Assembly (NCBI GenBank): GCA_963755115.1
Contig: CAVWIK010000002.1
Coordinates: 1,732,656-1,796,655, forward strand
Length of the DNA stretch: 64,000 nucleotides
Direction: 5' to 3'
Source: an uncultured Chloroflexia bacterium
Lineage (GTDB): Bacteria; Chloroflexota; Limnocylindria; Limnocylindrales; CSP1-4
Shown: in pieces, positions 5,776-62,961 of the stretch
Layout: every line of letters begins with the position of its first letter
Position numbering within the stretch: the stretch's first letter is position 1
Position numbers and translations under genes: made by a program
The notes under the pieces: model-generated
Databases searched by the model: none
The model's input: the letters and a program-made list of their open reading frames with translations, nothing else
What the model was told of the DNA's origin: nothing

Positions 5776-6716
5776 GGATCCCTCCTGATCGAGCTCACCT
5801 GCGGGATGACGTCGGCCGCCACGCGCTCGACCTGCTCCAGCTCGTCGCCGACGGGCCAGAGCAGCAGGCGGTCCACGCCGGCCGACTGGTAGCGCCCAAG
5901 CAGGTCGACACATCGCGCCGGCGAGCCGATGGGCAGCCGCAGCACGACCTCCTCCTCTGAGCGGCGCAACATCTGGCTCAGTCGCGCCACGACGGCTCGC
6001 TCCTTCGCCACGTCGTCGGTGACATACGACCAGACCGTGGCCAGCGTCGAAGGGAACCTCGTCGGATCCCGTCCCTCCGCGTCGAGCAGCTCGTCGAGCG
6101 CGGCTCGGGTGGTCGTGTAGTCGTCGGGGGTGGTGTTGTAGCCGGAGGCGAGCCAGCCGTCACCCAGTCGTGCCACGCGGCGCATGCCCGCCGCCGACCC
6201 CCAGCTGCCGATCCAGATCGGCGGACCCTTGGGTCGGGCCGGACGCGGGGCGAGGGTGATCCCGGTGGTGTCGTAGCAGCGTCCGACGAACGGCGGGCCA
6301 CCTTCGTCCCAGACCGCCCGCATCGCGGCGACCGCCTCGTCGAAGCGGGCCCAGCGCTCAGCGAACGGGATCCCGACCAGGTCGTAGTCGGCCTGCGACG
6401 AGCCCGGACCAAGGCCAGCGTCAAGTCGGCCGCCCGAGAGCAGGTCCAGCGCGGCGAGGGATTTCGCGAGCGCGAACGGGCCACGCACCACCGGCAGCGA
6501 CACGCTGGTCATGAGCCGGACCGTCGGAGCCGAGGAGAGCACGGCGGCCAGGGCTGTCGGTCCGTCGAGCCACGGCCGCCCGTACACGATGTGGTCGTTC
6601 GCCGTGATCGTGCCGAGCCCGAGGCGTTCCGCCGCGGTGGCGAACGCGATCAGCCGGCCGAGCGATGCGCGCTCGCCATCCCACTCGATCTGCGGGAGGT
6701 GCACGCCGAACTCCAT
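5772..6716 (-). CDS. luciferase-like monooxygenase (LLM) class flavin/F420-dependent oxidoreductase
   Basis: 314 aa from MEFGVHLPQ. LLM pattern includes ITANDHIVY and LDLLSGGRLDAGLGPG. The longer 551-aa ORF is an upstream extension antisense to the neighbouring gene. Confidence 0.8.
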   Translation of the reverse strand: MEFGVHLPQIEWDGERASLGRLIAFATAAERLGLGTITANDHIVYGRPWLDGPTALAAVLSSAPTVRLMTSVSLPVVRGPFALAKSLAALDLLSGGRLDAGLGPGSSQADYDLVGIPFAERWARFDEAVAAMRAVWDEGGPPFVGRCYDTTGITLAPRPARPKGPPIWIGSWGSAAGMRRVARLGDGWLASGYNTTPDDYTTTRAALDELLDAEGRDPTRFPSTLATVWSYVTDDVAKERAVVARLSQMLRRSEEEVVLRLPIGSPARCVDLLGRYQSAGVDRLLLWPVGDELEQVERVAADVIPQVSSIRRDP

Positions 6717-6779
6717 GGTCGCAACGATACCCGCGGCTCGGGGGCGTATGGTGGGCGGCCTACGACAGGGGGGTGCCAG

Positions 6780-9700: not shown

Positions 9701-11231
9701 TCGGACGGCCGAGCTCGAGATCCACAGCAACAGCACCATGGACGCGACGTTGGACTCGTTCTCGCTGTCGGCGCCAGGGGCGGAGACGCAGGTCTCGGTC
9801 GAGACCGGGCCGATCTCGGCCGGCCAGACACGGAACTACGTGCTCACGTATCAGCCGGACACCGTCGGCGAATTGACCACGAACGTCACCCTGCATTTCA
9901 CCGATCGCCTCGGGCCGCCGCAGCACACCCAGGATGTCGTCGTCCCGATGCGGGCGGTGGGCACAGGTGTCCAGGCGGCGCTGTCGCCGGCGACGCTGGA
10001 GTTCGGGACCGTCGTGGTGGGCGAGTCGAGCGCGCCACAGCCCGTCCAGCTCACGAATGTCGGGCAGCAGCCGCTCGTCGTGACCGGCCTGCTCCTCGGC
10101 AACGACTTCCGGCTCGTCAGCCCGCAGCCGACATTGCTCGCTCCGGGTCAGTCCGAACAGCTCGAGATCGCGTTCCGGCCGGCGGGCGACGGCTCTCGTT
10201 CGAGCGACTTCTCGATCACGTCGAACAGCGCCCAGCCGCCCGTCCCGGTCGCCCTCCATGGCGAGGGGCTCGTACAGGCGCTGGTGCACGCCTCCCCGCC
10301 CGCGCTCTCGTTCGACCAGACCCCGGTCGGCAGCCGCAGCGGCGAGCAGCAGGTCACGGTCCGCAACGACGGGGTGATCCCGGTCGCTGTCCAGGCGATC
10401 GTCGTGCGCGGCGCGGACGCCGCGGCGTTCCTGATCACGAACATGAGTCGTAAGGTGCCGGTCACTCTCACCCCGGAGATGTCCGTCGACGTATCGCTCG
10501 GCTTCGGTCCGGCGCACGCGGGCACGAGTGAAGCGACGCTGGACGTCGACCACGATGGGCCGACGAGCCCGCTCCAGATCGCGCTCGCGGGTCGCGGTGT
10601 GAGCGCACGCGGCCTCGTCGCCGACACGACCGAGGCCGACTTTGGCGGCATCGACATCGCGACCTCGTCGAAGCCGACACGCATCACGTTCACGAACGTG
10701 GACGCGACGGCTACCGAGGTCGGCGGTATCGCGATCAACGGGCCGGATGCGGGCGACTTCGCGATCGTCGGCCGGCAGGCGTTCCCTGTCGAGGTGGACC
10801 CCCAGGCGACCTTCCGGGTGAGCGTCCGGGCCAAGCCGACCGCGATGGGGCCGCGGCAGGCCACGCTCAGCGTCAAGGCGAGCGCGCCCGCGACCGACGT
10901 CGCGCTGCGCGCCGTCGGCCTCGGCGTCAGTGCCGTCTGGTCGGCCGCCCTGCTCGACTTCGGGCCTTGGGCGGTCACTTCGACCTCGCAACGGCAGGAG
11001 GCCACGATCCAGAACACCGGCAACACGCCCCTGGTGGTCACCCTCGTCGACACGGTGGGGGACTACGACGTCCGCGACCTCGCGCCCACGACGAGCATCG
11101 CCCCCGGCCAGTGGAAGTATCTCTGGATCTGGTTCAAACCCACCGCGACCGGGCAACGGGACGGGGCGGTGCAGGTCCACGTGGACAACGGCGACGTCCT
11201 GTCGCTCCCGCTCACGGGCGTCGGGGTCTAG
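6780..11231 (+). CDS. 1483-aa FAD-linked oxidase (PCMH/ALO-type with large insertions) fused to six tandem Ig-like (ASH / choice-of-anchor-D-like) repeats
   Basis: The N-terminus carries VRAVGGGWSFSD, GATLAGAISTATHGAEF and a late MLHWGLEN motif. From about nt 9320 there are six ~90-aa repeats of the form LxFGxVxVG...NxGxxPLxV. No signal peptide at MTVLSGPNRWW. The ORF is uninterrupted. Confidence 0.75.
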   Translation: MTVLSGPNRWWQNWSKTHAYVAQKAFFPISVDEIAEAILAAEADHRPVRAVGGGWSFSDASLPGAVTTNRPNVYAVEAMAGAAPLAASFPTDVTMPSIASVMSAPLLDLPGSLVMYNETLTPPAVDPRWVYLGNGTGTWLVNGQVVGGVGRPDFLDWLGAGGVRPIRPPTGGKPVEETDLPGTLVMHDLAHNPMKPSRDWFYNGHGRWSIGVNGDHTPPAEGTFPILSGDGWLRQPDVVWSPRASNPSDSLMLVLARAPNGMASPESAYVIDTHALASSLQVQLPDLLTPSATVAMNARSGHSPRYFFHVEAGITISELGELLARQSPHLSLQAISGSPGATLAGAISTATHGAEFNWPLLIDRVMAVHLVGPGGLQWWIEGTEQIADPDKLLAAYPGLARERIISGATPRYGIPPKDWLKAVVVSMGSIGVLYSVVLEVVPQFGVHEVVVQRTWKTLGFLGNQFPASNLPALLRDPMTASTVSSRIVKLMQSGNLNGTGIVQSDGQREINQYADLAINPNMRKDGDFDTWVGNRELTAALPIDPQPPASNEMAEMIKGIQGALSAPDLDPTWSGIYGFGSPNDVPWNLLGSALTHSGVFAGGSTGLGAKVDRLTNAADMIDVGLDTFLTPMGAQAPGFDLAQHVLSGLLAGLLGTANKAKISDKRGVSVGALGFPGSGVMGAALEIALAPADAFGFIQTQILDKVDPMKPFLGYISVRLCSPTETLLGMQQFSDAAHNCSVMIEVVGFGNDDGRKFVGDLQMRTVDLIRLSGLEAMLHWGLENEQFDRFHLHGLMALQRPAGSGMNKLDTFKAVRALIRAESPTPSTVFNNNFTTRLGLDAEVADQPFDFGHFSLHGTPRTVHFHFPNDGPGPARMVPPMAEGDFGPGNLTIVPGVTLANPGQEVTVDVTFTPNEPGPHRGTLTILTSVPGVPNGVKVNRLFLKAVVEVFEMVVQDPLPPAVLDLGDVPVGEHRTAELEIHSNSTMDATLDSFSLSAPGAETQVSVETGPISAGQTRNYVLTYQPDTVGELTTNVTLHFTDRLGPPQHTQDVVVPMRAVGTGVQAALSPATLEFGTVVVGESSAPQPVQLTNVGQQPLVVTGLLLGNDFRLVSPQPTLLAPGQSEQLEIAFRPAGDGSRSSDFSITSNSAQPPVPVALHGEGLVQALVHASPPALSFDQTPVGSRSGEQQVTVRNDGVIPVAVQAIVVRGADAAAFLITNMSRKVPVTLTPEMSVDVSLGFGPAHAGTSEATLDVDHDGPTSPLQIALAGRGVSARGLVADTTEADFGGIDIATSSKPTRITFTNVDATATEVGGIAINGPDAGDFAIVGRQAFPVEVDPQATFRVSVRAKPTAMGPRQATLSVKASAPATDVALRAVGLGVSAVWSAALLDFGPWAVTSTSQRQEATIQNTGNTPLVVTLVDTVGDYDVRDLAPTTSIAPGQWKYLWIWFKPTATGQRDGAVQVHVDNGDVLSLPLTGVGV

Positions 11232-39155: not shown

Positions 39156-39795
39156 CTACCCGGATCGTGGGCGCAGCAGGCCACGTTCGTACGCCACCGC
39201 CACGGCCGCGGCCCGGTCGCCGACGTCGAGCTTGGCGTAGATGTGGAGGAGGTGGGTCTTGACCGTCGCCTCGGAGATGAAAAGGCGGGTCGCGGCCCCG
39301 CGATTGGTCTCGCCCTGGGCGATGAGCGTCAGGACCTCCAGCTCGCGCTCGCTCAGCTGTTCCTGGGCGGGACTGCGCAGGTCGGTGACGAGGCGGGTCA
39401 CCACCGATGGCGCGAGGACCGCCTCGCCGCGGGCCGCCGCGCGGATGGCTCGCAGCAGCTCCGGCCGTGGCGTGTCCTTGAGCAGGTAGCCCGTCGCGCC
39501 GGCCCCGAGCGCGGGGAGCACGTCCCGGTCGCTGTCGTACGTCGTCAGCACGAGCACCCGGGCCGCCGACCCGCGCTGCGCCAGGGTCTGGATCGCCTCG
39601 AGGCCGCCGACGCCGGGCATCCGCAGGTCCATCAGGACGACGTCCGGGCGCGAGCGTGTCCACGAGCGCGAGCGCCTCGGCGCCGTCGCCGGCCTCGCCC
39701 ACGACCTCGAAGTCCGGCTCCGCGGTCAGCATGCCCCGGAGCCCGTCGCGGACGATGGGGTGATCGTCCGCGATCAGCACGCGGATGGGGCTCAC
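39156..39795 (-). pseudogene. NarL/LuxR-family response regulator, frame break near 39643-39648
   Basis: GTG 39795 gives VSPIRVLIADDHPIVRDGLRGML...LVDTLAP. The frame then shifts to DVVLMDLRMPGVGGLEAI...LSERELEVLTLIAQGETN (ORF 39156-39632). Confidence 0.75.
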
Positions 39796-41037
39796 GGTGT
39801 CGTCGCCGCGGACGGATCGATCGCGATGGCGGGGACGCGGGCGGAGATCGCCGTCCCGTGGCCCGGCTCCGATTCGATGGCGAGCGAGCCCGCCACCCGG
39901 GCCACGCGCTGGCGCATGCCGTGGAGGCCGAACCCGGCGCCCGACGCGTCGGCGGGGCGCCCGACGTCGAACCCGACCCCGTCGTCGTGCACGTCGAGGG
40001 CGACCTCGTCGCCCATGTACGAGAGCGTGATGCGGGCGCGGCCCGCCTGGGCGTGCTTGGCGACGTTCGCGAGCGCCTCCTGGGCCGTCCGCAGCAGGGT
40101 GACCTCGATCTCCGGGTCGAGCGTGATGGCGTCGCCGGTGACCGTGACCTCGGCCGGGACCGCCGTCCGTTCGGACCACTCGCGCGCGACCTCGCGGAGC
40201 GCATCGGGGAGCGTCGCGGCCTCGAGCGGCGCGGGCAGCGCGCCCTCCACGGACCGGCGCGCCTCGCTCAGGCTCTCGCGGGCCAGCTTCTCGGCGTTCG
40301 CGAGGTGCCGGTCGTGCTCGTCGGGTCGGTCGTGTCGCGTGGCGGGCCGCCTCGAGCTGGGTGATGACGCCGGTGAGGCCCTGGGCGATGGTGTCGTGGA
40401 TCTCGGCCGCCATCCGCTGGCGCTCCTCCAGCACCCCGGCCTCCCGCGCCTGCGCCAGCAGCTGGGCATGGAGGCCCTGGTTCTCGGCCAGCGCCTGCTC
40501 GAGTCGCGTGACCGTCTCCCGACGCGCCTCGTTCTGCTCGGCGACCCGCTCGCTGTAGAACGTGCCGGCGCTGATGACCGCGGTCTGCACCACGATGATC
40601 ACGAACCAGAACGTCCATCCTGTGGCCGTCACCGGGAGTCCCGCGAGCAGCGAGTTCACGAGGATGGAGGTCACCGCGATGGCCGCGACGGCCACCGCGA
40701 ACGGGCGGAGCACGGTGGCGTAGAAGAAGCCACTGATCATGAAGATGAAGAAGAGCGGCTGCCGGAGCATCAGGATCGAGGCGAGGATCACCACGCCGAT
40801 CCAGAACACCAGCAGCCGGGCCTGGTGGTCCCGGCGGGGGAGCGGCAGCCGCGTGTATCCGACGTAGATCCACGCGGCCGCCACGAGCGCGATGGCCAGC
40901 GTCGTCAGCCGCCAGGCCGGGTCCGGATCGCCCAGCACGACGCCGAGGATCGTCCCGGCCGCCAGGAGCGCGTACCCGCCGATGCTGAGCATCGCGTCGG
41001 AGAGCCCGTCCCACGATCGATCCCGGAAGACTCGCAT
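39792..41037 (-). pseudogene. sensor histidine kinase (HisKA_3 type), frame break near 40325-40345
   Basis: N-terminal TM helices and the H-box ERQRMAAEIHDTIAQGL are in the 41037 frame. The HATPase part (...LLRTAQEALANVAKHA...GFGLHGMRQR) is in ORF 39792-40469. Confidence 0.75.
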
Positions 41038-41816: not shown

Positions 41817-42740
41817 GACAGCTCTCCTGAAGGTGCGGCCGCCGGGCGGCCAGTGAGGGCGATGAAGGCGTCGTCGAGGGTGGCCTGGTCGATGCGCAGG
41901 TCCCTCGCCACGATCCCGTTGCGGGCCAGGACCGCAGTCACGGCGGCCAGCAGGTCGCCACGGCCGGTCACCACGACCGTCGGCCCGGACCGCTCGATGC
42001 GGCGGACCTCGGGCAGGCCGGCGAGCAGCCCGTCGTCGAGCTCGACCGACGGCCGGAAGCGGACGCGCTGCTCGGGGTCGGCTCGGGCGACGATGCCGGC
42101 CGGCGTGTCGATCGCGACGACCTGGCCGTCGCGGATCACGGCGACCCGATCGGCGAGGTGCTCGGCCTCCTCCATGAGGTGGGTCACGAGCAGGACGGTC
42201 ACGCCCTGGTCACGCATCGACTCGATGACGCGCCACGTCTCGCGGCGCGCGTGCGGGTCGAGGCCCGTCGAGAGCTCGTCGAGGATGGCGACCCGCGGCC
42301 GCCCGACGAGCGCGAGGGCGATCGAGAGCCGCTGCTTCTGACCGCCCGACAGGTTGCGGTACGCGGTGTCGCGACGGTCGGCGAGGTCGAGGTCGTCGAG
42401 CAGGCGGTTGGTGTCGGCCGGCGCGGCGTAGAACGACGCGAACAGCTCGAGCGCCTCGCGCGGCGTCATCCGCTCGGGGAGCTCGCTCTCCTGGAGCTGC
42501 ACCCCCACGAGGCGTCCGCAGCCGATCGCGGTCGTCGCGCGGGTCGTACCCGAGGACGCGGATCGTGCCGCCGTCCGGCGTCCGGAGACCGGCGATCGAC
42601 TCGACGGTGGTCGTCTTGCCGGCGCCGTTGGGTCCCAGGATCCCGAAGATCTCGCCTTCCTCGACGGTGAACGAGACGCCGTCCACGACGAGGCGGCTGC
42701 CGTAGCGCTTCTGGAGGTCGGTGACTTCGATGACGTTCAT
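41813..42740 (-). pseudogene. ABC transporter ATP-binding protein, frame break near 42505-42530
   Basis: [14 protein letters not shown]...[13 protein letters not shown] is in one frame. [33 protein letters not shown] is in ORF 41813-42508. Confidence 0.75.
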
Positions 42741-47857: not shown

Positions 47858-48821
47858 CTACGGACCGGCCAGCTGCTCCACGAGCGGGCGCGATGGCGTC
47901 GGAGCCCGGGCTCGTCGAACCAGCCGACCATGTACGAGTTGATGCCCCAGCGCTGGCGGGTTCGGACGAGCTTGTCGACCAGGTCGGGGACCGTGCCGAT
48001 CAGCGAGTAGGGCGACTCGAGGACGTCCCGGGGCCGATCGGCGACGCCCGTCCGGGTCGCTGAGCTCGCGGGCCACCTCGGCGGCCACCTTGAGCTGGCG
48101 TGTCGGTGATCGTGATGTCGCCGACCAGGTCGGAGGACGCTGAGGTCGAGCTGCCCCCGAAGGGCGGTCGCCGGCCTCGTCCCGGACCCAACCGACCCGG
48201 ACGTCGGTCCGCGCCTCTGGAAGGCATCGAGGATCATCGCCCCGTCCTGGCGCAGGTCGAGCCCGACGATGTCGGCTTCCCGGGCCGCCAGCCGGACGAC
48301 ACGCTCGCGCGTCCCGCCGATGAGGAACGGCGGATGTGGCCGCTGGACCGGCTTCGGGCAAGCCGTCCATCCGCGGTGATCGTGTAGTACCCGCCCGAGA
48401 AGCTGAACGGGCCGTCTCGCGAACAGCCCGCGCAGGACCGCGACGGCCTCGGTCATCCGGTCGATCCTGAACCGGCCGGGTCGAACGGGAGTCCGGGCGC
48501 CGCGGTACTCCGGCTCGTGCCAGCCCGCCCCGATGCCCACCTCCGTGCGGCCGCCGCTGAGGATGTCGAGGCTGGCCAGCTCCTGGGCCAGGACGGCCGG
48601 GTGGCGCAGGTCGTTGTTGAACACGAGCGGGCAGGAGCCGGAGTCGCTCGGTCGCCATCGCCACGGCCGTGAGCAAGGGGGATAGGGGAGTGCTGCCGCC
48701 CGAGGTGGTCGTGGACGCACACGTGGCTGCACCCGATCCCCTCGGCCCACCGGGCGCGCTCGACAAGCGTCGGCGCGTCGACGGGATCGCGGGACCCGAT
48801 CATGAACCGGAACGGCCTCAC
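47858..48821 (-). pseudogene. LLM-class F420-dependent oxidoreductase, at least 5 frame breaks
   Basis: The segments are spread over all three minus frames. In order they are VRPFRFMIGSRDPVDAPTLVERARWAEGIGCSHVCVHDHL, LLTAVAMATERLR, PLVFNNDLRHPAVLAQELASLDILSGGRTEVGIGAGWHEPEY, KPVQRPHPPFLIGG, SPYSLIGTVPDLVDKL and PLVEQLAGP-stop. Confidence 0.6.
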
Positions 48822-49204
48822 GCCGGCATGATGCGCCGGAGCCACAACGTATGGTACTCGACCCCTCCCTCCGCAAGCCCGAGATCAGCCCCTCGCTAGA
48901 CTGGCCGCGTGTCGAGTCGTTGTTGGGCAGTCGTATCCGGCGCGGACGTCGCTCGACGGCGAAGTCAATCGTCCTCGTGCTCGAGGAAGATGGCTTCGAG
49001 GTGGCTTCTCCGTCACCGTGTACGACGCCGATGGGCGTTCCACAACCGAGACGGCCTGTTATGCCGCGCGGTCGCATGCCATCGACGGGGCCGCAGCTGA
49101 GCACGCTCCGGCCGATGTCGGTCCTTGGAGCCAGCTGCCCGATGACGTCCGAGACGCAGTGACCTACGCCACAAGGCAACGTCGTCGTTTCAGGTAGGCG
49201 ACTC

Positions 49205-49433
49205 GTGCGACAGTCCAAGTTCGCGCGTCGCTTGAAGGCCAATGTGAAACGTCTCCGTGACAGCATGTGTCTATCCCGCCGGCTTTGTTAGGAATGATGG
49301 GATCTCCGCCACGCCCCGGTTCCGTCCGTGACGGCGGTTTCGCGGCTCGTTCGTCCCTCGGAGGACAGATAGACCGTAGAGCTGTCGCGTGTAGGCATCC
49401 GTAACAGACCAGCTGGTTCAGGCCATCGAAGGG
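49205..49433 (+). pseudogene. remnant of an XRE-family helix-turn-helix gene (multiple stops and frame breaks)
   Basis: GTG 49205 gives VRQSKFARRLKANVKRLRDSM.LS, which is typical of an XRE N-terminus. Continuations such as GISATP and TVELSR.GI are only recoverable by frame hopping. Lower-GC region. Confidence 0.35.
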
Positions 49434-49561
49434 TTGGCCGTCGCGTTCCGAACTGTCTTGTCTCGACCCGAGCTTGGACGACTTGGAGTTACCGCGAGGA
49501 ATGTCGACACGATCCAACTGAGCCAAACCGATGGATTGCGTCCAGCCCCTCGACACGGAGC

Positions 49562-50697
49562 ATGCATCCCCGACTCCGGTCCGCCTTGGAAGAGTCGGCC
49601 GAATGGTCGTCGGCCGTGGATGCGCTGAAGGCTGACCCCGCCACGTGTCGCGTAACGGACCAACTCGTCGGTGATGACCAGGGCTCGATGCTTCTCCAGT
49701 CCGTGGCCCTGCTTGATCAGTCTCTCACCGTGCGGTTTGCACCACGAGGTGGAAGGCGTCGAGTCGAGCGCCTCGCAGCCAGTTGGCGTGCGCATTACAG
49801 CGGCGCGCACGTCACGGTCGCTACCAATTCCTTGTTACATGGTCTGGATCCGTGTCGACCAATCAAGCTATCTCCACACGTGACTCTGCGGCGAATGAGC
49901 GACGCCGAAGTCTCAGAGGCTCTGTCCCTCGTGGCAATTTCTCAGCAGCCTCGATTTGTTGGCGTTGCTTTTCTGGATCGTCCAGCCACAATCGCAATCA
50001 CCCAACGAGTGCCGCGACGTATCGTCGTTGACGTTCACGAGCCCGTAGCAGCGCAGAGACACTTTGAGAAGGTCGACCAAACGGTCGAGGCGACGGTAAC
50101 CGCCCTCCGGCTTGTCGGACTTTCGTCGTTTCGTGTGTTTTCACGGATTCGCCAAATGGGGTTCGTGGGTGTCGTGTGGTCGTGAACACCGTTTCAGTAC
50201 CCGATGGGCGTCATGATCGGATTGAGCAATTCGAACCGTCGAACTCTGAGCGTCCGATTCCCCTCAGGTCATGCGTGCCTTTGATGTCGAGGACAACGTT
50301 CTCATCGCTCTCCGTCGATTTAATCAGTCGCATGAGCCACGACACGAGCATGACCGCTTCCTGGACCTGTGGATCGCCATGGAGGCACTGTTCTCGGCGG
50401 ACGCCAACGCGGATGTCACCTATCGCCTGTCGGTCAACGCCGCGAACTATGTGAGGTTGCCGTGTATCGAGCGTTTGGCCATGTTCGACTGGGTTCGTAA
50501 GTGCTATGAGGCACGTAGCCGATTGGTCCACGGGGGAAGCCGAATGTCCGTCGTCTTCGTCTCGACTCTCGGGTGACCCTGTTGAGAGCCTCAACCAGAT
50601 AGCCGACGACCTGACCTCAGTAGTTGCTTCAGCCCGCAAACGTCGCCTCTCCGAAGGACGGACGCCTGAGTGTGTCGCCTATTCAGTTCGACGATGA
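49562..50697 (+). pseudogene. HEPN-motif protein (Apea/MAE_28990-like C-terminal domain) with an unknown ~200-aa N-terminal domain, about 3 frame breaks
   Basis: ORFs 49562-50185, 50176-50454, 50271-50576 and 50506-50697 chain together. The C-terminal part reads FLDLWIAMEALF...YRLSVNAANY...YEARSRLVHGG, which contains the R-x4-H HEPN motif. The last break is in the G-run cacggggga. Confidence 0.45.
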
Positions 50698-51036
50698 TGG
50701 CCCCGTTTGCTGTGTACGCTCGCACGGATCGGTACAAGCGAGTTGCCTGGCGTCGTCAGTGAAGCCGCATGAAATCGGTCACGCGAAGTCCCAGAACTGT
50801 GGGAACCGCAATCGACGACCTCTTCCAGGGAATTGCAGGACCTGTTCAGTCGTCGCAAAATCTGCCCGGCCGAATCAGCGCGCGATAGTCCTGCCGCGCA
50901 ACGTATGATGCGCGTCCCGCGTCACAGTCCCGCCGGCCGAGTCGGCCGTGCGCGTGACAGATTCGCGTCTACGAGCGAAGATGTCGAACCTGTCAGGGAC
51001 GAAGCCCGGCGCTGGCCCAGCGCGCATGAGCATCCA

Positions 51037-56964: not shown

Positions 56965-57979
56965 TCAGACGTGTGGCGCGACACCCTCGGCGAGTTGCTG
57001 CATCACCTCGACCTGCGCCTCGTATTCGAGCATCGGCAGGTGGCTGCGCGCCACGAACTCGACCGGACCGGCGCCTGACGCCTGACCTCGAGCAGCGCCT
57101 CGACGAGCTCGTCGGGCGTGCCGGCGTGCGCGGTCCGGCGCGCCAGGAGCTTCTCGTCCTCGCCTTCGAACGGGGGAGGGGAGGCCGGCGGGAGCGACCG
57201 CGTCGCCGAGGCCTCCATGTCCGAGTATTTCCAGTTCAGCGCCCAGACGGCATCGCGGTAGCGGGCGAGCGCATCGGCGCGAGACGCGCCGGGCAGCAGG
57301 ATCGAGTAGTGGACGAACCGGAACGTCGAGGGGATCGCGACCGGCCTGCTCGAGCTCATCGAGCACCCAGCCGACCTGCTCCGAACTCGTCCGCCGGCGC
57401 ATTCGAGAAGATGCCATCCGCGAGGCGAGCCGCGCGGCGGAGGGCCGGCTCGGCGCCCCCGCCGATAAGGATCGGGATCCGGGTCGATGGCGTGGGACGC
57501 ACCGCGAGGGTCGGGAGCTGGTGCACGGAGCCCTCGAACGTGAACGGCTCACCGCTCCATGCCTGCGGGAGGATCCGGAGGGTCTCCTCCATCGCCGCGC
57601 CGCGACGCCGCATGTCGGCGCCGAGCCCGGCGTACTCGACCTCCGACCACCCGAGCCCGAGTCCGAGCGCGAGCCGCCCGTGGCTCAGGAGCTGGACCGT
57701 CGCCGCGTCCTCCGCCAGGCGCAGCGGGTGATGCATCGGCGCGAGGACGACGCCGGTGCCGATCTCGATCCGTGACGTCGCCTGAGCGAGGGCTGCGCTG
57801 ACCACGAGGAGCGAGGGCATGTAGCCGTCGTCGACGAAGTGATGCTCCGTCGTCCAGACCGAGCTGAAGCCGAGCCGCTCAGCCTGGACAGCCAGGCGCA
57901 CCGTGTCGTCATACGCACGCGTCCAGTCCGTCTCGCCAGGCCGAAGCTGGGCGCTGAGGAGTCCGAAGCCGAGGGTCAT
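56965..57979 (-). pseudogene. LLM-class flavin/F420-dependent oxidoreductase, about 3 frame breaks
   Basis: [11 protein letters not shown]...[13 protein letters not shown]...[14 protein letters not shown] is ORF 57356-57979. It continues through ORF 57003-57359 (FRFVHYSILLPG...) and ORF 56965-57552 (...PVEFVARSHLPMLEYEAQVEVMQQLAEGVAPHV). Confidence 0.65.
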
Positions 57980-58036: not shown

Positions 58037-59003
58037 CTACGGCTTCGGGTGGTCGACCAGGAAGTCCATCACGGCATCTGGAAACGCCTCCGAGACGCAG
58101 GGACGTGGCCGCCGTCGGGTCGTCCAGAGCTGGACGGCCGCGCCTGACTCGCAGCCTGACCATTCCCGACCGACGACTCGGCCGGATCGTCCCCGTCTGC
58201 TCGGTCCGCGTCAACATCGACCTTGTCGGTCAGCGTGGACGATGTCCCGTCGCACCCGTTGTATGTCGCCCATGTCTCGGCCGTCGTTTCTGCACCGGGG
58301 TAGGTGACTGCGATCGTGCCACCTTCATAGAGAATGGTGTCGTCGGCCGTCCGTGGATCTGCGACGACGGAACGGGCTCGCTCGGGGCGCAGTCCGTCGG
58401 GTCCGCATAGGTTGCGCCGGCCAGGCTGACAATGGCCGCGACAGGTCGGCCTGTTCGCAGGCCATCCGATACGACATGAAGCCGCCGTTGGAGTGCCCGA
58501 CGAAAGCGATCCGCTTCGGGTCGATGGCAAGCTCCGCCTGGGTCTCGTCGATGACGTCCGTGAGGTAGGCCACGTCGTCGACGTCGGCCCCAGAGAAATT
58601 GCAGCAGGCATCGGTGGCGTTCCAGAACCGGTTGCCGTCCTTGTCCAACGTCCCATCGGGATAGGCGTAGACGAAACCTCGTGCTTCGGCCGCGGGACCC
58701 AGGTTCAAGTACGTCTCGATCCTCGCCTGAACTGGTGAAGCCATGCAGCAGGATCAGCAACGGGGCGGGCTGGTGTGCGTCGTACGAAGCCGGGATGTGA
58801 ACGGTGACGGGTCGGTCGCCACCGACGACGAGGTCCGCCTGGGGAGTGGCGATCTCGGCCGGCTTGGACGGCGATCGTGGTGCCGTCGTCGGCGAGGGGG
58901 CCAATGACCCGCCCGCGCAGGCTCCGGCGATCAGGCTGACGATGGCCGTGAACGCGAGCCGGCGGAGCGCGTGCCTCGGAGCCGGGTCCTGCGGCCTACC
59001 CAT
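58037..59003 (-). pseudogene. secreted PHB-depolymerase-family esterase (LpqC-like), at least 4 frame breaks
   Basis: GAGGAGG precedes ATG 59003, followed by the lipobox-like LIAGAC. Segments PLLILLHGFTSSG, FVYAYPDG...FWNATDACC, IAFVGHSNGGFMSY, VAAIVSLAG and ILYEGGTIAVTYPG...FLVDHPKP-stop are spread over three frames. Confidence 0.65.
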
Positions 59004-59493
59004 CGACTCGAGCCTCCTCGCTCACCTGCGCTCGACGACCGCTGCCCGAGACGATAGCGCGAGCGCGCAGACGCACTTGGGCGCGGGCGCGAGCTCCGGG
59101 CCTCGAGGCAGCACGAGGCTTTGCGCCGACCGTCGAGTTCCGGGGTCGGTATCGGGGTGGATGGGCGTATCGATCCGGCTCCTGCAGTCGGCCGAGCTCG
59201 ACGTCGCGTTCGGCGGCGCCGACTGGCGAGGCAGGGGAGGGGATGGCGACATCGAGCGCGAGGGTCATATGGTTCAGGCTCAGCGTCCATCGGTCCTGTG
59301 CTTCCCTCTGGGTGCAGCGGGAGGCGCCGCGGCCACGCTAGACCCGAGCTTCGACATACGGGATGTATTTCGAAGCGCCTGCAAGTCTCGCATCGCTATC
59401 CGGCGCTCGTTCGTGAAGCCTTGACGATCGTCAGCGACAGGTTGAAGTAACCTCGTTCTCTGAAACGGCATGTTTCCTACCAGGAGGCGAGCA

Positions 59494-59760
59494 ATGGTCG
59501 ACGAAGTCCCACTCTTAGCAATCAGATCGGTTTCCGTGTCAGGGACTACCGTGGGCCACACGAGGATTACGGCGACGGAGCCGGAGAGACCTCAGACGAC
59601 CAACGCGACTCGGAGATCCGCGTTGTCGCTGGAGAGGGAACGCCGGTACTCGCACAGGGGTCGATGCCAGTCCGTGGCAAAGCACTGGGTCACCCCTCCT
59701 CACAAGGCAGACCCCGGAGACAACCGACGACCCCGGAGATCGATGACGGCCTGGGGCTAT
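59494..59760 (+). other. candidate precursor-peptide coding region upstream of the ATP-grasp ligase (reading frame unresolved)
   Basis: Frame 1: CAGGAGG, 6 nt, then ATG 59494 (MVDEVPLLAIRSVSVSGTTVGH..., 99 aa, runs to 59793). Frame 0: open from 59451 with an internal ATG at 59664 (MPVRGKALGHPSSQGRPRRQPTTPEIDDGLGL). Its TGA at 59758-59760 overlaps ATG 59759 of the ligase. Confidence 0.35.
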
Positions 59761-60687
59761 GAAACATCCGACAGTCGTGGTCGTTTCGTATGACGAGGAT
59801 GAGCACGGAACCTACTTAATTCGCCTGCTGCAGGAACGCGGCGTTGACGCAATTCGTGTCTCCTATGACGACGCCGTGCGCGCCCGCTGACCTGGGATAC
59901 ACTTAGTTCAGGAATTGGATTCGGTGGTCTCGACGGATCCAATGTCGCGGGGATCTGGCGACGGGCAGGAACGCTGACCATCGGCGGCGTGAAGCCTGAA
60001 TACGCGACGTTTGCAATGAGTGAGTGGAAAGACGCGTTCGAAGGCGCCCTGGCGGCGGCGCCCGTTGCATGGCTGTCGACTCTGGGAGCGATGCGCCACG
60101 CGGAGCTAAAGCTAGTTCAGCTCGCCTCCGCGCAGCGACTCGGGATTCCGTATCCACGGACTCTCGTGACCAATGACCCGCCCGCTGCCCGCCGCTTTGC
60201 AACTGCTCATGCGACGGTCGTCAAGCCGATCAGATATGGCCTTGTGTCTCTTGAGCCTCCGCGCATGGCGTGGACCCGCGACATCTTGCCCGATGAACTC
60301 ACCGCAATCGACGGTCCACCAATCATGCTTCAAGAGCGGGTTTCGGTCGATTATCACTTGCGAGTAGTCACTGTTGGCTCGATCGCCTTCCCATCCAAGC
60401 TCAGAACCGATGCCTTGGATTGGCGTTCGGATGAGGCCAATCACGACCGCTTCCGTTCGTCGATGGAGTCGAGAGACCGCGCCACTGCCGAGGCCGCGTG
60501 CAAGTTGGCGTCGACTCTGAACCTCGGTTTCTCAGCGCAGGATTGGGTTGTGGATCGCGATGGCAGTGAGTACTTTCTCGATCTGAATCCGAATGGGCAA
60601 TGGATGTTCCTCGACCCAGCATGGGAAGGAGCAATCGGAATCGCGATGGCGGCCAAGCTGGAGGCGTTGACGACATGCCGGGCATAG
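59759..60687 (+). pseudogene. MdnC/MvdD-type ATP-grasp peptide maturase (graspetide ligase family), one frame break between 59848 and 59888
   Basis: It is colinear with MdnC as I recall it. MKHPTVVVVSYDEDEHGTYLIRLLQERGVDAIRVSYDD is in one frame. AGIWRR...HAELKLVQLASAQRLGIPYPRTLVTNDPPAARRF...LQERVSVDYHLRVVTVG...LDWRSDE...FSAQDWVVDRDGSEYFLDLNPNGQWMFLD is in ORF 59989-60687. Confidence 0.7.
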
Positions 60688-61326
60688 CTCGTCGAATTGC
60701 GGCATACCTACTTAACGACGCCGCAACTGCTGAGGCCCTTGATCCAGTTCCGTTAGGAAATCCGCCGCAGTGGCTCGTTGATGCGACTGGAGACCAAGAC
60801 CGCGCGACATACGCGGTGGAGGTCTCAACCAAGAGCGTCGAACTCGCCGATGCTGCCGTCGACGGGTTGCAGGCGAAAGCATCGAGTCACCTCACGTTTC
60901 TGCTGGCGCTGGTCCCGTTCGCCCTGGCTGCAACAGCGCTAAGCCTCCCTCCGTCCTCGTCGCCAAGCCTCGGCCGGATGACAGCGTTTCTGATTTTCTG
61001 CGTGGCAGACGCGTCGCTGCTAGTTGGGGTGGTCTTGGCTTCGCTGGCGGGGGGACTGGTTCTCCGAGGGGGTATCAGCCTCGACCGACTCGGAAACCTC
61101 GCCGACGAGATGGCCACTGATTCACCTAGAGATCCAATCGCCGCATTGAAGGCCGCCCAGGCTGAAGCGCTTCGTTACGCCGCCCTAAATTCGTACTCTG
61201 CGGGCGTCCGCGTCGGCAGCGATCTTTTACGCGGCTAAACGATTCACGTTCATCGCGCTTCTGCTCGCAACAATCGCGGTGATCGTTCTAGTTCTGGCCG
61301 GCGGTGGGCTAGACGTGTTTCGCTAG
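60675..61326 (+). pseudogene. hypothetical 3-TM membrane protein, frame break near 61228-61236
   Basis: ATG 60675 overlaps the ligase 3' end by 13 nt. The protein has a ~90-aa soluble N-terminus and two TM helices (LTFLLALVPFALAATALSL and FLIFCVADASLLVGVVLASLAGGLVL). A third TM helix (FTFIALLLATIAVIVLVLAGG) appears after a +1 shift, ending at TAG 61324-61326. Confidence 0.45.
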
Positions 61327-61500
61327 GCCAGACATAACTCACCTTATCGGAAGTAGTCTGTAGCCTCGGATGTAGCGTCCCGACCGAGTTTGCAGATCGC
61401 GCCACCGCCTTCGGGGTGTCGGAGCGCCTGGTGAAGCAGGCCGGTGGACCGTGGTCTCGCCGGATGTCGGAGAGCTGCCGACAGCTACACGGCGCCACGC

Positions 61501-61549
61501 TTGCACTCCTCCGATCGGTGTGGTACAACACTGAACCACATGGTTCAGT
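61501..61549 (+). promoter_or_regulatory. putative promoter (TTGCAC-17-TACAAC) and 9-2-9 palindrome ACTGAACCA-CA-TGGTTCAGT (61530-61549) centred on the ArsR start codon
   Basis: The perfect inverted repeat contains ATG 61540. It shares the AACC-n-GGTT core with the operator at 22211-22234. Confidence 0.5.
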
Positions 61550-61905
61550 ATGTCAGGGCCCGCTTCGATGCCTCGTTCGCTGCGCTCTCGGACGCCACAC
61601 GACGTGGTGTTCTGGAGCAGCTCGGCCGTGGGGACGCTTCGATCACGGAGCTTGCCGAGATGCATCACATGACGCTCACCGGCATGAAGAAGCATGTCGG
61701 CGTCCTGGAGCAGGCAGGGCTCGTCGCGACTGAGAAGGTCGGGCGGGTGCGGACCTGCACCCTCGGCCCGCGCCGGCTGGAGGAAGAGGCGGCGTGGATC
61801 GAGAGGTACCGCCAGCTCTGGGACGCACGCTTCGACGAGCTGGACAAGGTTGTCGAGGAACTGCAACGGAGGGAGAACGTCGATGGACGCAACAAGAGCG
61901 AGTGA
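61540..61905 (+). CDS. ArsR/SmtB-family transcriptional regulator
   Basis: MVQYVRARFDASFAALSDATRRGVLEQLGRGDASITELAEMHHMTLTGMKKHVGVLEQAGLV. Confidence 0.85.
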   Translation: MVQYVRARFDASFAALSDATRRGVLEQLGRGDASITELAEMHHMTLTGMKKHVGVLEQAGLVATEKVGRVRTCTLGPRRLEEEAAWIERYRQLWDARFDELDKVVEELQRRENVDGRNKSE

Positions 61906-62386
61906 GCTTGCCCCCATGAAGGACCGCACGACGGTGGAGCGGACGTCCGAGCGTGAGCTCGTCGTCACGCGAACGTTCAACGGCCCGGCGCGCCTGGTGT
62001 TCGAGGCGTGGACCAAGCCCGAGCTGTTCAGGCAGTGGTGGGTGCCGAAGTCGATGGGCATGTCCCTGCGTTCCTGTGAGATGGATGTTCGTGTCGGGGG
62101 CAAGTACCGTCTCGAGTTCGAACCCGATGCTGTGGCGTTCTTCGGCACGTACCAGGAAGTGACACCGCACTCGCGCCTCGTCTGGACCAACGAGGAAAGT
62201 GACGAGAGTTCCGTCACGACGGTGACCTTCGAGGACAGAGGCGGCAAGACGTTGCTGGTCATGCACGAGCTGTATCCCTCGAAGGAAGCGCTCGACGCTG
62301 CCGGCACCGGGGCGGCTGATGCGATGGGAGAGTCATTCGCGCAACTGGACGACCTGCTCACCACCCTGAGCGTGGACGGTCACTGA
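61883..62386 (+). CDS. SRPBCC/AHSA1-family protein
   Basis: Contains ELVVTRTFNGPARLVFEAWTKPELFRQWW and GKYRLEF. The start is ATG 61883 or ATG 61916. Confidence 0.8.
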   Translation: MDATRASELAPMKDRTTVERTSERELVVTRTFNGPARLVFEAWTKPELFRQWWVPKSMGMSLRSCEMDVRVGGKYRLEFEPDAVAFFGTYQEVTPHSRLVWTNEESDESSVTTVTFEDRGGKTLLVMHELYPSKEALDAAGTGAADAMGESFAQLDDLLTTLSVDGH

Positions 62387-62430
62387 CGTCGTCGATGTCG
62401 CGACGCGCCCGGTGAGGAAAGGACGTGGGG

Positions 62431-62961
62431 ATGGCCAAGTTGGTGTTCGGAATGAACCAGTCCCTGGACGGCTACGTCGACCATACGGCGTTTGCGCCAG
62501 GTCCCGCGCTCTTCCGCCACTTCATCGAGGAGGCTCAGGCGCAGGCGGGCAGTGTGTACGGGCGCCGCATGTACGAGGTCATGCGGTACTGGGACGACGA
62601 TGATCCCGGATGGGGTACCGACGAACGCGCCTTCGCGGCGGCGTGGCGGAACGCGCCCAAATGGGTCGCCTCGCGCTCGTTGACGTCGGTCGGTCCCAAC
62701 GCCACGCTCGTTGGCGATGACCTCGAGGGCGTGATCCGCGAGCTGAAGGCCGAGCGCGACGGAGAGATCGAAGTCGCCGGCCCGGCTCTGGCCCAAAGCC
62801 TCACCGAACTTGGCCTGATCGACGAGTATCGGATCTACCTGCACCCGGTCGTGCTCGGCACCGGCAAGCCATATTTCGCCGGACCTCGGCCACCGCTCCG
62901 ACTCATGACGAGTGATCGGATCGATGAGGACGTGATCAGGTTGACGTACGTTCCTGCCTGA
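62431..62961 (+). CDS. dihydrofolate reductase-family (RibD C-terminal domain) protein
   Basis: Starts MAKLVFGMNQSLDGYV and contains EIEVAGPALAQSLTELGLIDEYRIYLHPVVLGTGKPYF. GAGGAAAGGA lies upstream. Paralog of 45666-46268. Confidence 0.8.
   Translation: MAKLVFGMNQSLDGYVDHTAFAPGPALFRHFIEEAQAQAGSVYGRRMYEVMRYWDDDDPGWGTDERAFAAAWRNAPKWVASRSLTSVGPNATLVGDDLEGVIRELKAERDGEIEVAGPALAQSLTELGLIDEYRIYLHPVVLGTGKPYFAGPRPPLRLMTSDRIDEDVIRLTYVPA

What the first reader, a model, noticed from the sequence alone, without database searches (positions are those of the whole stretch)
59451..61326. Lower-GC three-gene module: MdnC/MvdD-type ATP-grasp peptide ligase with a short upstream ORF and a downstream 3-TM protein (candidate graspetide-like RiPP locus)
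- The 309-aa reconstruction at 59759-60687 is colinear from end to end with microviridin-type ATP-grasp maturases. The matching blocks are the N-terminal beta-alpha unit, WRR, K-L-x-Q-L-x-x-A-x-x-LG-x-x-x-P-x-T-L-x-(T/S)-N, the DWR motif and the L(D/E)(L/I)NP-x-G-(Q/E)-(W/F) ending.
- It sits in a ~2 kb patch of visibly lower G+C (55 % in the 60-nt line 60361-60420, against ~70 % in the flanks).
- It is tightly packed with two unannotatable partners. A short ORF ends in an ATGA-type overlap with the ligase start. A membrane protein's ATG overlaps the ligase stop region.
- No protease, methyltransferase or ABC exporter typical of described graspetide clusters is adjacent. If the locus is functional, that arrangement would be an unusual minimal or novel architecture.
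- Caveat: both larger genes carry one frame break each as sequenced.
Basis: partly seen in the sequence, partly recalled or inferred. Interest (0 to 1): 0.75.

Follow-up and report, generated by a model that had tools for sequence, protein, structure and literature searches.

The report
Graspetide peptide-cyclising gene trio, frameshifted copy
This is a copy, with four reading-frame breaks, of a rare but conserved three-gene unit (a small repeat-containing precursor peptide, an ATP-grasp enzyme predicted to cross-link it into rings, and a dedicated membrane protein); it belongs to the known graspetide class of ribosomal peptide natural products and is not a new kind of system.

Summary
- **Ligase.** The repaired 309-aa ATP-grasp protein (59759-60687) matches ribosomal-peptide maturase models end to end. 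TIGR04187 gives 151 bits and RimK 15 bits. It carries the Arg213-equivalent and the D-W-R loop of graspetide cyclases.
- **Conserved trio.** Fifteen other loci from MAGs and metagenomes (Actinomycetota and Chloroflexota where named) have the same layout. All 15 keep the ligase with a private ~220-aa 3-TM protein right behind it. In the 12 with enough upstream sequence, an 63-125-aa ORF carries 2-3 (four in L165) tandem units: P-h-L ... G-x-T-x-h-T-x3-4-E-T-(T/S)-D-(D/E).
- **Precursor in the window.** It lies at 59494-59746 and needs two frame corrections.
- **Frame breaks.** The module has four, not two. Similar breaks occur in at least five unrelated genes of the window. An indel-noisy assembly is therefore more likely than decay of this locus alone.
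- **Architecture.** [quoted passage not shown] is already described for the plesiocin and thuringinin clusters, so the minimal layout is not novel.
- **What is new.** This appears to be an unnumbered graspetide family with its own core motif and its own membrane-partner family, usually next to defence or mobile genes.
- **Interest.** Moderate.

The parts
59482..59487 (+). AGGAGG ribosome-binding site, 6 nt before the precursor ATG
   Evidence: Read directly from the sequence. It supports ATG 59494 as the start, rather than ATG 59470.
59494..59746 (+). Precursor peptide gene (about 83 aa after repair): MVDEVPLLAIRSVSVSGTTVGHTRITATEP(x)ETSDDQRDSEIRVVAGEGTPVLAQGSMPVRGKALGHPLLTRQTPETTDDPGDR*. It has two tandem leader-plus-core units and is read in three frames as sequenced.
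   Evidence: The three-frame translation matches the precursors of L001, L004 and L005. The two best tblastn hits of the L001 precursor in the whole window are 59503-59619 and 59687-59734, in different frames, E 1.6e-4 each.
59509..59600 (+). Repeat unit 1: P-L-L leader-like motif (59509-59517), G-H-T-R-I-T (T at 59560) and E-T-S-D-D (59586-59600). The frame break lies between 59578 and 59586.
   Evidence: The break can be repaired either by removing GA from GAGAGA or by adding one base in CCGG. Which is right cannot be decided.
59643..59731 (+). Repeat unit 2: P-V-L motif (59643-59651), V-R-G-K-A-L-G-H, then L-L-T-R-Q-T-P-E-T-T-D-D (E-T-T-D-D = 59717-59731). The frame break is at the C-run 59693-59696 (one C missing).
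   Evidence: After repair it is colinear with the L001 unit VDGEVRGYSVLTRAAPETTDD.
59759..60687 (+). ATP-grasp peptide macrocyclase (309 aa after repair). The frame break is at the C-run 59883-59885 (one base missing, between ...DDAVRA and PLTWDT...).
   Evidence: - NCBIfam TIGR04187: 151 bits, aa 5-301 against profile positions 1-311 of 312.
- PDB profile hits: AMdnB, MdnB, 9bou, MdnC, CdnC, PsnB.
- R202 and D221-W222-R223 align with PsnB Arg213 and the DFR loop.
- All 34 family-invariant residues are kept.
60675..61326 (+). 3-TM partner protein (216 aa after repair). Its ATG overlaps the ligase stop. The frame break is at the T-run 61225-61228 (one extra T); after repair ...SDLYAAKRFTF... 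matches L004 ...QDLYEARRMTV....
   Evidence: -.
- A local HMM finds this family only directly behind close-family ligases.
- The exhaustive search finds 55 representative clusters among 1.84 billion proteins.
- Hydropathy is; the AF2 model is all-helical, pLDDT 78.6.
59100..61400 (.). Low-G+C patch (57-62 %) that holds the module. G+C stays at 62-67 % up to about 63000.

Best explanation
The module is a graspetide (omega-ester peptide) biosynthetic trio acquired by horizontal transfer.

**Proposed mechanism**
- The small gene encodes a precursor made of two tandem cassettes. Each has a P-h-L leader-like recognition motif followed by a core G-x-(T/S)-x-h-T-x3-4-E-T-(T/S)-D-(D/E).
- The ATP-grasp enzyme binds the leader-like motif and phosphorylates Asp/Glu side-chain carboxylates. 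The conserved Arg (R202) presents the acid to ATP, and the D-W-R loop holds the nucleotide.
- Thr/Ser hydroxyls attack the acyl-phosphate, giving side-chain-to-side-chain macrolactones. Probably two or more form per cassette.
- The product would be a multi-ring peptide of the kind that, in all characterised graspetides, inhibits proteases.
- The 3-TM protein is translationally coupled to the ligase and found only with it. It most likely exports the product, anchors or scaffolds the ligase at the membrane, or gives self-protection.

**Shown here**
- Family membership of the ligase.
- Conservation of the trio.
- The repeat motif.

**Inferred**
- The chemistry, the ring number and the membrane protein's role.

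**State of the copy**
- The four frame breaks in the window's copy are more likely assembly indel errors at short homopolymers than real inactivation.
For: **Ligase**
- TIGR04187 151 bits end to end, MvdC 88, MvdD 84, RimK 15.
- Every PDB sequence hit with E below 0.001 is a graspetide cyclase.
- R202 aligns with PsnB Arg213 and DWR with PsnB DFR(233-235) (roles from 10.1101/2021.03.09.434688).
- WRR aligns with the W-x-RR of AMdnB.

**Trio**
- The ligase-plus-3-TM pair is present in all 15 distinct other loci: L001, L004-L010, L085, L086, L088, L165-L168.
- The upstream repeat ORF is present in the 12 of them that have enough upstream sequence.
- None of about 150 more distant ATP-grasp loci has the TM family or an ORF with two or more E[TS][TS]D[DE] motifs.

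**Precursor**
- 25 units in 11 precursors share invariant E, T and D, and most have a P-h-L motif 25-30 residues upstream.
- That motif matches the general graspetide leader motif Phhx(1,2)h / PFFARFL (PMC8939145).

**Other**
- Stop/start overlap of the ligase and TM genes occurs in the window and in most homologues.
- Low G+C, and flanks that differ in every genome, indicate mobility.
- Frame breaks occur in five unrelated genes of the window. The window ligase keeps every family-invariant residue and has no stop other than the one caused by the shift.
Against: - No curated model is passed. TIGR04187 needs 350 bits. Pfam finds nothing for any of the three proteins, and NCBIfam finds nothing for the precursor or the TM protein.
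- No modified peptide has been observed for any member of this family.
- There is no leader protease or recognised transporter in the conserved unit, so release and export are unexplained.
- The first T/S of the core is Pro in the window's second unit.
- The TM protein has no structural or sequence relative of known function.
- The persistent defence-island setting also fits a non-natural-product role.
- If the frame breaks are real, this copy makes nothing.
Confidence: 0.7

Rival explanations
1. The trio is a conflict or anti-phage (or toxin-antitoxin-like) module rather than a secreted natural product. The 3-TM protein would be a membrane-disrupting effector. The ligase-cross-linked peptide would act inside the cell as its regulator, or as a protease inhibitor or decoy aimed at an invader.
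For: - Neighbours of the trio in other genomes are mostly defence or mobile genes:
  - AbiEii + PhdYeFM + relaxase (L001)
  - NERD + DUF4062 + PIN (L004)
  - DUF87 (L005)
  - caspase domain (L006)
  - integrase + Gp49/HTH (L007)
  - Mrr-ResIII helicase (L009)
  - ThsB_TIR (L166)
  - ADDT/aGPT-Pplase3 (L165)

- The TM partner is strictly coupled to the ligase, is small, has no transporter signature and occurs nowhere else.
- No protease or exporter is conserved.
- The literature links RiPPs, including graspetides, to phage interactions (PMC11118758, PMC11626197).
Against: - PADLOC finds nothing for any of the three proteins.
- Small horizontally moving gene clusters of any function gather in the same variable islands.
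- Membrane proteins of unknown function are already routine in the plesiocin and thuringinin clusters.
- No member was found in phage or plasmid records.
- There is no experimental hint.
Confidence: 0.12
2. In this genome the module is a dead relic: the four frame breaks are real and the trio is a decaying horizontally acquired pseudogene cluster. This concerns the state of this copy, not the nature of the family.
For: - Four frame breaks lie in 1.9 kb, including two in an 83-codon gene.
- The neighbouring esterase and LLM oxidoreductase are also broken three times each.
- A 1546-codon ORF elsewhere in the window (6591-11231) has no break. Errors are therefore not evenly spread.
Against: - Breaks also hit a response regulator, a histidine kinase and an ABC ATPase 17-22 kb away. 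That would need genome-wide decay.
- At least three of the four module breaks are single-base length changes in C or T runs of 3-4. That is typical of long-read consensus errors, and the source contig is 2.34 Mb.
- There are no in-frame stops or lost invariant residues in the ligase.
Confidence: 0.25
3. The ATP-grasp enzyme is a RimK/GshB-type ligase of primary metabolism (adding amino acids to a protein or a small molecule), and the small ORF is not its substrate.
For: - Some database sources label homologues 'glutathione synthase/RimK-type ligase-like ATP-grasp enzyme'.
- There are weak RimK-family hits of 15-25 bits.
Against: - RimK scores ten times lower than the RiPP maturase models, and far below its 143-bit cut-off.
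- No RimK or GshB structure is among the PDB hits.
- The repeat-bearing small ORF is strictly conserved directly upstream.
Confidence: 0.03

Closest known systems
Plesiocin (group 2) and thuringinin (group 3) graspetide clusters
   Same: - A single ATP-grasp cyclase.
- A precursor with several repeated Thr / acid-rich cores.
- An adjacent membrane protein of unknown function.
- No dedicated protease, methyltransferase or ABC exporter.
(10.1101/2021.05.19.444834 Fig. 1 legend; PMC8939145 cluster 13 and cluster 18.)
   Different: - The core motif differs: plesiocin is TTxxxxEE, here it is T-x3-4-E-T-(T/S)-D-(D/E).
- The ligase is only distantly related to PsnB (72 bits by profile).
- Here most cassettes carry their own P-h-L leader-like motif, instead of one N-terminal leader.
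Actinobacterial SAV_5884/TgmB-type ATP-grasp ribosomal peptide maturases (NCBIfam TIGR04187; graspimiditide-type clusters)
   Same: - Best-scoring curated model, aligned end to end.
- About 30-36 % identity to annotated Streptomyces maturases.
   Different: - Scores are 151-170 bits against a 350-bit cut-off.
- No PIMT-type O-methyltransferase is nearby.
- The precursor matches no NCBIfam model.
- A private 3-TM partner replaces it.
Microviridin cyclases MdnB/MdnC and the multi-core AMdnB system
   Same: - Best solved-structure relatives: AMdnB 8e-47, MdnB 4e-44.
- Shared W-RR, (H/E)LRV and DWR motifs.
- P-F-L-type leader motif like PFFARFL.
- AMdnB also processes several cores in one precursor (PMC5934393).
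   Different: - One ligase, not two.
- No conserved Lys for a lactam.
- The microviridin core TxKxPSD is absent (motif recalled from general knowledge).
- No acetyltransferase or ABC transporter.
Uncharacterised 'PETYDD-LLPS' trios of Acidimicrobiia, sponge-associated Poriferisodalis and Micromonosporaceae (L011, L014, L016 and others)
   Same: - The same three-gene order.
- 2-3 repeated cores ending E-T-Y-D-D.
- A 3-TM partner of the same topology, remotely homologous to the window's (hhalign 91.9 %, E 7e-7).
   Different: - The ligase is 31-41 % identical, in most of these loci only over the C-terminal two-thirds.
- The repeats have no P-h-L motif of their own.
- The TM partner is not detected by a plain HMM.

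Membership tests
Graspetide (ATP-grasp RiPP) macrocyclases, broad class | Full-length similarity to known graspetide cyclases that clearly exceeds similarity to RimK/GshB-type ATP-grasp enzymes | tested here: met
   TIGR04187 151 bits, MvdC 88, MvdD 84, RimK 15. All six PDB hits with E below 0.001 are graspetide cyclases.
Graspetide (ATP-grasp RiPP) macrocyclases, broad class | Conserved active-site Arg (PsnB Arg213) and the D(F/W)R nucleotide loop | tested here: met
   Window R202 (HLRVVTV) aligns with PsnB chain R233, which is native R213. D221-W222-R223 aligns with D-F-R. Both are invariant in 17 family members.
Graspetide (ATP-grasp RiPP) macrocyclases, broad class | Second conserved Arg (PsnB Arg72 region) | tested here: inconclusive
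   WRR (aa 67-69) is invariant in the family and aligns with W-x-RR of AMdnB and 9bou. The stretch was not aligned to PsnB itself.
Graspetide (ATP-grasp RiPP) macrocyclases, broad class | Adjacent small precursor gene with a P-h-h-x-h leader motif and a core rich in Thr/Ser donors and Asp/Glu acceptors | tested here: met
   12 other loci plus the window. 25 units were aligned. Motif definition from PMC8939145.
Graspetide (ATP-grasp RiPP) macrocyclases, broad class | ATP-dependent loss of water (-18 Da per ring) on the precursor | not testable with these tools
   Needs co-expression and mass spectrometry.
TIGR04187 GRASP_SAV_5884 subfamily | Score at or above the curated cut-off (350 bits) | tested here: not met
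   151 bits for the window, 160-170 bits for intact homologues.
Microviridin MvdC/MvdD (TIGR04185/TIGR04184) | Curated cut-offs of 425 and 475 bits; two paralogous ligases in the cluster | tested here: not met
   88 and 84 bits. There is a single ligase in every locus.
Plesiocin-type (group 2) graspetides | Core motif TTxxxxEE | tested here: not met
   None of the 25 aligned units ends in the Glu-Glu pair of TTxxxxEE; all end E-T-x-D-(D/E).
RimK family alpha-L-glutamate ligases (TIGR00768) | Curated cut-off of 143.4 bits | tested here: not met
   15.3 bits.
Known anti-phage defence systems (PADLOC-DB 2.0) | Any of the three proteins matches a defence-system model | tested here: not met
   No hit at E up to 1.
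Thuringinin/plesiocin-locus membrane proteins (Makarova clusters 18 and 40) | Sequence homology of the 3-TM partner to those proteins | not tested
   Those sequences are not in the held supplements, and there is no Pfam model for either family.

The most novel reading that the evidence does not exclude
The strictly coupled 3-TM protein is not an exporter but an essential partner or effector. Either the ligase works only as a membrane complex with it (partner-protein-dependent graspetide synthesis, first described in 2026 for soluble partners), or the trio is a new peptide-based defence module in which a cross-linked multi-ring peptide controls a membrane effector.
Probability: 0.15. Interest if true: 0.7.

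Novelty: new member of a known kind. Interest (0 to 1): 0.38.

Why it matters
- It adds a small, apparently unnumbered family to the graspetides. The family has 22 ligase relatives above about 40 % identity and 55 membrane-partner clusters among 1.84 billion representatives. Where the source organism is named, it comes from uncultured Actinomycetota and Chloroflexota.
- The family has its own core motif, E-T-(T/S)-D-(D/E), a cassette-like precursor in which most cores bring their own leader-like motif, and a private membrane partner.
- This gives natural-product chemists a compact three-gene target for new ring topologies and probable protease inhibitors.
- The strict ligase-membrane-protein coupling could help explain what the unexplained membrane proteins of plesiocin- and thuringinin-type clusters do.
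- For the genome scan, the practical lesson is that this window carries frequent single-base frame breaks. 'Pseudogene' calls in it should not be trusted without the reads.

Tried and rejected
- Pfam on the three repaired window proteins: no hits. On 44 members of the TM family, no Pfam family was shared by more than two members.
- PADLOC: no hits.
- NCBIfam on intact precursors and TM proteins: nothing meaningful.
- IMG/VR scan with the L001 ligase: nothing.
- Phage and plasmid tblastn: only 27-30 % identical canonical maturases.
- AlphaFold2 model of the TM protein (pLDDT 78.6) followed by Foldseek against PDB: only generic helical bundles, best E 0.16.
- Looking up the window's own contig through P0063: not on record and no name, so the organism remains unknown.
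- tRNA genes, flanking direct or inverted repeats, promoter or terminator consensus around the module: nothing useful.
- Searching the supplements of Makarova 2022 and Carter 2026 for ETTDD, ETSDD, ETTDE and ETYDD precursors: no family member found. The Carter spreadsheet is truncated in the held copy, so absence is not proven.
- A fourth conserved gene: the 260-aa protein is seen only in L001 and L005 and was rejected as part of the unit.
- The upstream alpha/beta-hydrolase (58069-59003) as a candidate leader protease: it lies on the other strand, is not conserved next to homologues and sits mostly outside the low-G+C patch, so it was rejected.
Full report
**1. What is in the sequence**

The region 59451-61326 is a low-G+C patch. 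It is 60.3 % G+C against 69.7 % for the window. The sd of equal-sized windows is 2.7 %, and the module ranks 12th lowest of 1243.

The ATP-grasp gene starts at ATG 59759 and runs 43 codons to a TGA. It continues without a stop in the next frame to TAG 60685-60687. The junction lies at the C-run 59883-59885, where one base appears to be missing.

The downstream gene starts at ATG 60675, overlapping the ligase stop. It breaks at the T-run 61225-61228 and ends at TAG 61324-61326. Removing one T gives ...SDLYAAKRFTFIALLL..., colinear with ...QDLYEARRMTVIAVLL... of a homologue. It has three hydrophobic segments.

**2. The ligase is a graspetide-type cyclase**

- NCBIfam places it end to end on TIGR04187, 'ATP-grasp ribosomal peptide maturase': 151 bits, aa 5-301 on profile positions 1-311 of 312.
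- MvdC scores 88 bits, MvdD 84 bits and RimK only 15 bits. Intact homologues behave the same way.
- All scores are below the curated cut-offs, so it belongs to none of the named subfamilies.
- A family profile finds only graspetide cyclases among solved structures: AMdnB 8e-47, MdnB, 9bou, MdnC, CdnC, PsnB.
- In the pairwise alignment to PsnB, window R202 falls on Arg213, which presents the ring-forming acid to ATP. D221-W222-R223 falls on the DFR loop (roles from bioRxiv 10.1101/2021.03.09.434688).
- These residues and WRR are invariant in 17 family members, the window copy included.

**3. The trio is conserved**

- The ligase has a small circle of relatives at 40-57 % identity, nearly all from metagenomes. 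There is then a gap down to ordinary 'ATP-grasp ribosomal peptide maturases' at about 32 %.
- Fifteen distinct other loci carry the ligase directly followed by the 3-TM protein: L001, L004-L010, L085, L086, L088 and L165-L168. They come from Actinomycetota, Chloroflexia and Limnocylindrales MAGs and from unbinned contigs.
- In the 12 loci that have enough upstream sequence, a 63-125-aa ORF lies directly upstream. The 3-TM gene is directly downstream, often with overlapping stop and start.
- A local HMM of the membrane protein hits only these loci among 164 fetched ATP-grasp loci.
- An ORF with two or more E[TS][TS]D[DE] motifs occurs only immediately upstream of these ligases.
- An exhaustive profile search of 1.84 billion representative proteins finds just 55 clusters of the membrane protein, essentially all stand-alone and 190-260 aa.
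- Four of the most distant ones were looked up. Each again sits behind a ligase of this family.

**4. The precursor**

- The small ORFs hold 2-3 tandem units (four E-T-x-D-type motifs in L165).
- The 25 aligned units read P-h-L, about 8-10 residues, (V)-x-G, x3, G-x-(T/S)-x-h-T, x3-4, E-T-(T/S)-D-(D/E). E, T and D are invariant.
- The P-h-L element corresponds to the general graspetide leader motif Phhx(1,2)h, PFFARFL in microviridins (PMC8939145). Most cassettes therefore seem to carry their own recognition element.
- In the window the same peptide is readable only across three frames. It begins at ATG 59494, six nt after AGGAGG.
  - One break lies between 59578 and 59586.
  - A second lies at the C-run 59693-59696.
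  - The stop is TGA 59744-59746.
- The two best tblastn hits of the L001 precursor anywhere in the window fall exactly here, in two frames.

**5. Are the frame breaks real?**

- The module has four breaks in 1.9 kb, but the window has many more.
  - The LLM oxidoreductase and the esterase just upstream are each broken three times. Pfam sees only positions 16-220 of 314 of Bac_luciferase in one frame.
  - A response regulator, a histidine kinase and an ABC ATPase at 39.6-42.6 kb each continue recognisably in another frame.
- At least three of the four module breaks are one-base length changes in runs of 3-4 C or T.
- The ligase has lost no invariant residue and has no other stop.
- The source contig is 2.34 Mb, which suggests a long-read assembly.
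- I judge assembly indel noise about three times as likely as genuine inactivation. Only the reads can settle it.

**6. How it most likely works**

- By analogy with characterised graspetide systems, the ligase binds the P-h-L element and phosphorylates Asp/Glu side chains of the E-T-T-D-D end. It then couples them to the upstream and internal Thr/Ser hydroxyls, giving macrolactones in each cassette.
- No Lys is conserved, so lactams are unlikely.
- Ring number and connectivity cannot be predicted.
- The membrane partner has no Pfam, NCBIfam or PADLOC match and no structural relative.
  - Its model is a helical hairpin whose long cytoplasmic helices run into the TM segments.
  - The nearly invariant residues (a Lys before TM1, a Glu in the cytoplasmic helix, an Arg before TM3) do not suggest a protease.
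  - Export, membrane scaffolding or immunity are the ordinary guesses.

**7. Comparison with what is known**

- The layout 'multi-core precursor + one ATP-grasp + membrane protein of unknown function' is the published layout of the plesiocin and thuringinin clusters (10.1101/2021.05.19.444834; PMC8939145, clusters 13 and 18).
- In my own set, 56 of 138 related ligases are followed directly by an ORF with at least two hydrophobic (predicted TM) segments.
- A neighbouring clade in Acidimicrobiia and Micromonosporaceae has PETYDD-LLPS repeats and a remotely homologous 3-TM partner (hhalign 91.9 %, E 7e-7).
- The architecture is therefore not novel.
- I could not find the E-T-(T/S)-D-(D/E) precursors in the supplements of the two large surveys. 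None of the representative precursors I could read for new groups 25-43 (nine of the nineteen) resembles them. With numbered groups requiring 20 or more members, this rare family is probably unnumbered. The held spreadsheet is truncated, so this is not proven.

**8. Setting**

The trio's neighbours differ in every genome and are mostly defence or mobile genes:
- AbiEii/PhdYeFM/relaxase
- NERD/DUF4062/PIN
- DUF87
- a caspase-domain protein
- integrase with Gp49/HTH
- an Mrr-ResIII helicase
- ThsB_TIR
- ADDT/aGPT-Pplase3

This fits a small mobile cassette. It also leaves open a conflict-related role, which I rate at roughly 0.12-0.15.

**9. Verdict**

- The identification as a graspetide-like locus is right and is now backed by synteny and motif evidence.
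- The claim of an unusual architecture is not supported.
- The small-ORF coordinates needed correction.
- The frame breaks are probably artefacts of a noisy assembly.
- It is a new member (a likely new group) of a known kind. Interest is moderate.

Noticed in passing
window 39612-39684, 40272-40365, 42473-42563, 57022-57427, 58306-58763: Single proteins continue recognisably in another reading frame: a response regulator, a histidine kinase, an ABC ATPase, an LLM-class oxidoreductase (three breaks) and a PHB-depolymerase-like esterase (three breaks). The window as a whole seems to carry about one indel-type frame break per 0.5-2 kb.
   Followed up: partly
window ~48400-50900: A second low-G+C patch (minimum 59.7 % around 49001-50900) holds only short ORFs. 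ORF 50271-50576 ends ...YEARSRLVHGG, which recalls a HEPN-type Rx4H motif. It may be another decayed or mis-assembled acquired element.
   Followed up: no
L001 4830-5612 (+) and L005 3955-4737 (-): A 260-aa protein with no Pfam match lies just upstream of the trio in two otherwise unrelated loci (25 % identity, E 2e-7; shared NLRxxLDxLxYxL and DKHR motifs). It is absent from the other loci and from the window.
   Followed up: partly
L011, L013, L014, L016, L019, L021, L062, L096, L105, L112, L121, L149: A neighbouring clade (Acidimicrobiia, sponge-associated Poriferisodalis, Micromonosporaceae) has the same three-gene order. Its precursor repeats read GT-x-x-T-x-x-PETYDD-xx-LLPS. Its 3-TM partner is remotely homologous to the window's (hhalign 91.9 %, E 7e-7).
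   Followed up: partly
L165 296-751, L166 1176-1876, L006 4134-5554, L009 3557-7021: Trios sit directly beside conflict-system genes: ADDT/aGPT-Pplase3, ThsB-type TIR with DUF7701, a caspase-domain protein next to a 176-aa protein with no Pfam hit that looks SLOG-like by eye, and an Mrr-ResIII helicase with seven HA domains.
   Followed up: partly
window 61544-62961: Downstream of the module, three short genes appear intact in a region of 62-67 % G+C: an ArsR-type regulator, an SRPBCC/AHSA1-like protein and a RibD_C-like reductase. They were identified by eye from the translations, not by a search. They may belong to the same acquired segment.
   Followed up: no
L007 6001-6930: In this Actinomycetota MAG the ligase is listed only as a 212-aa C-terminal ORF, although tblastn matches from 6001. 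The N-terminal part may be in another frame there too.
   Followed up: no
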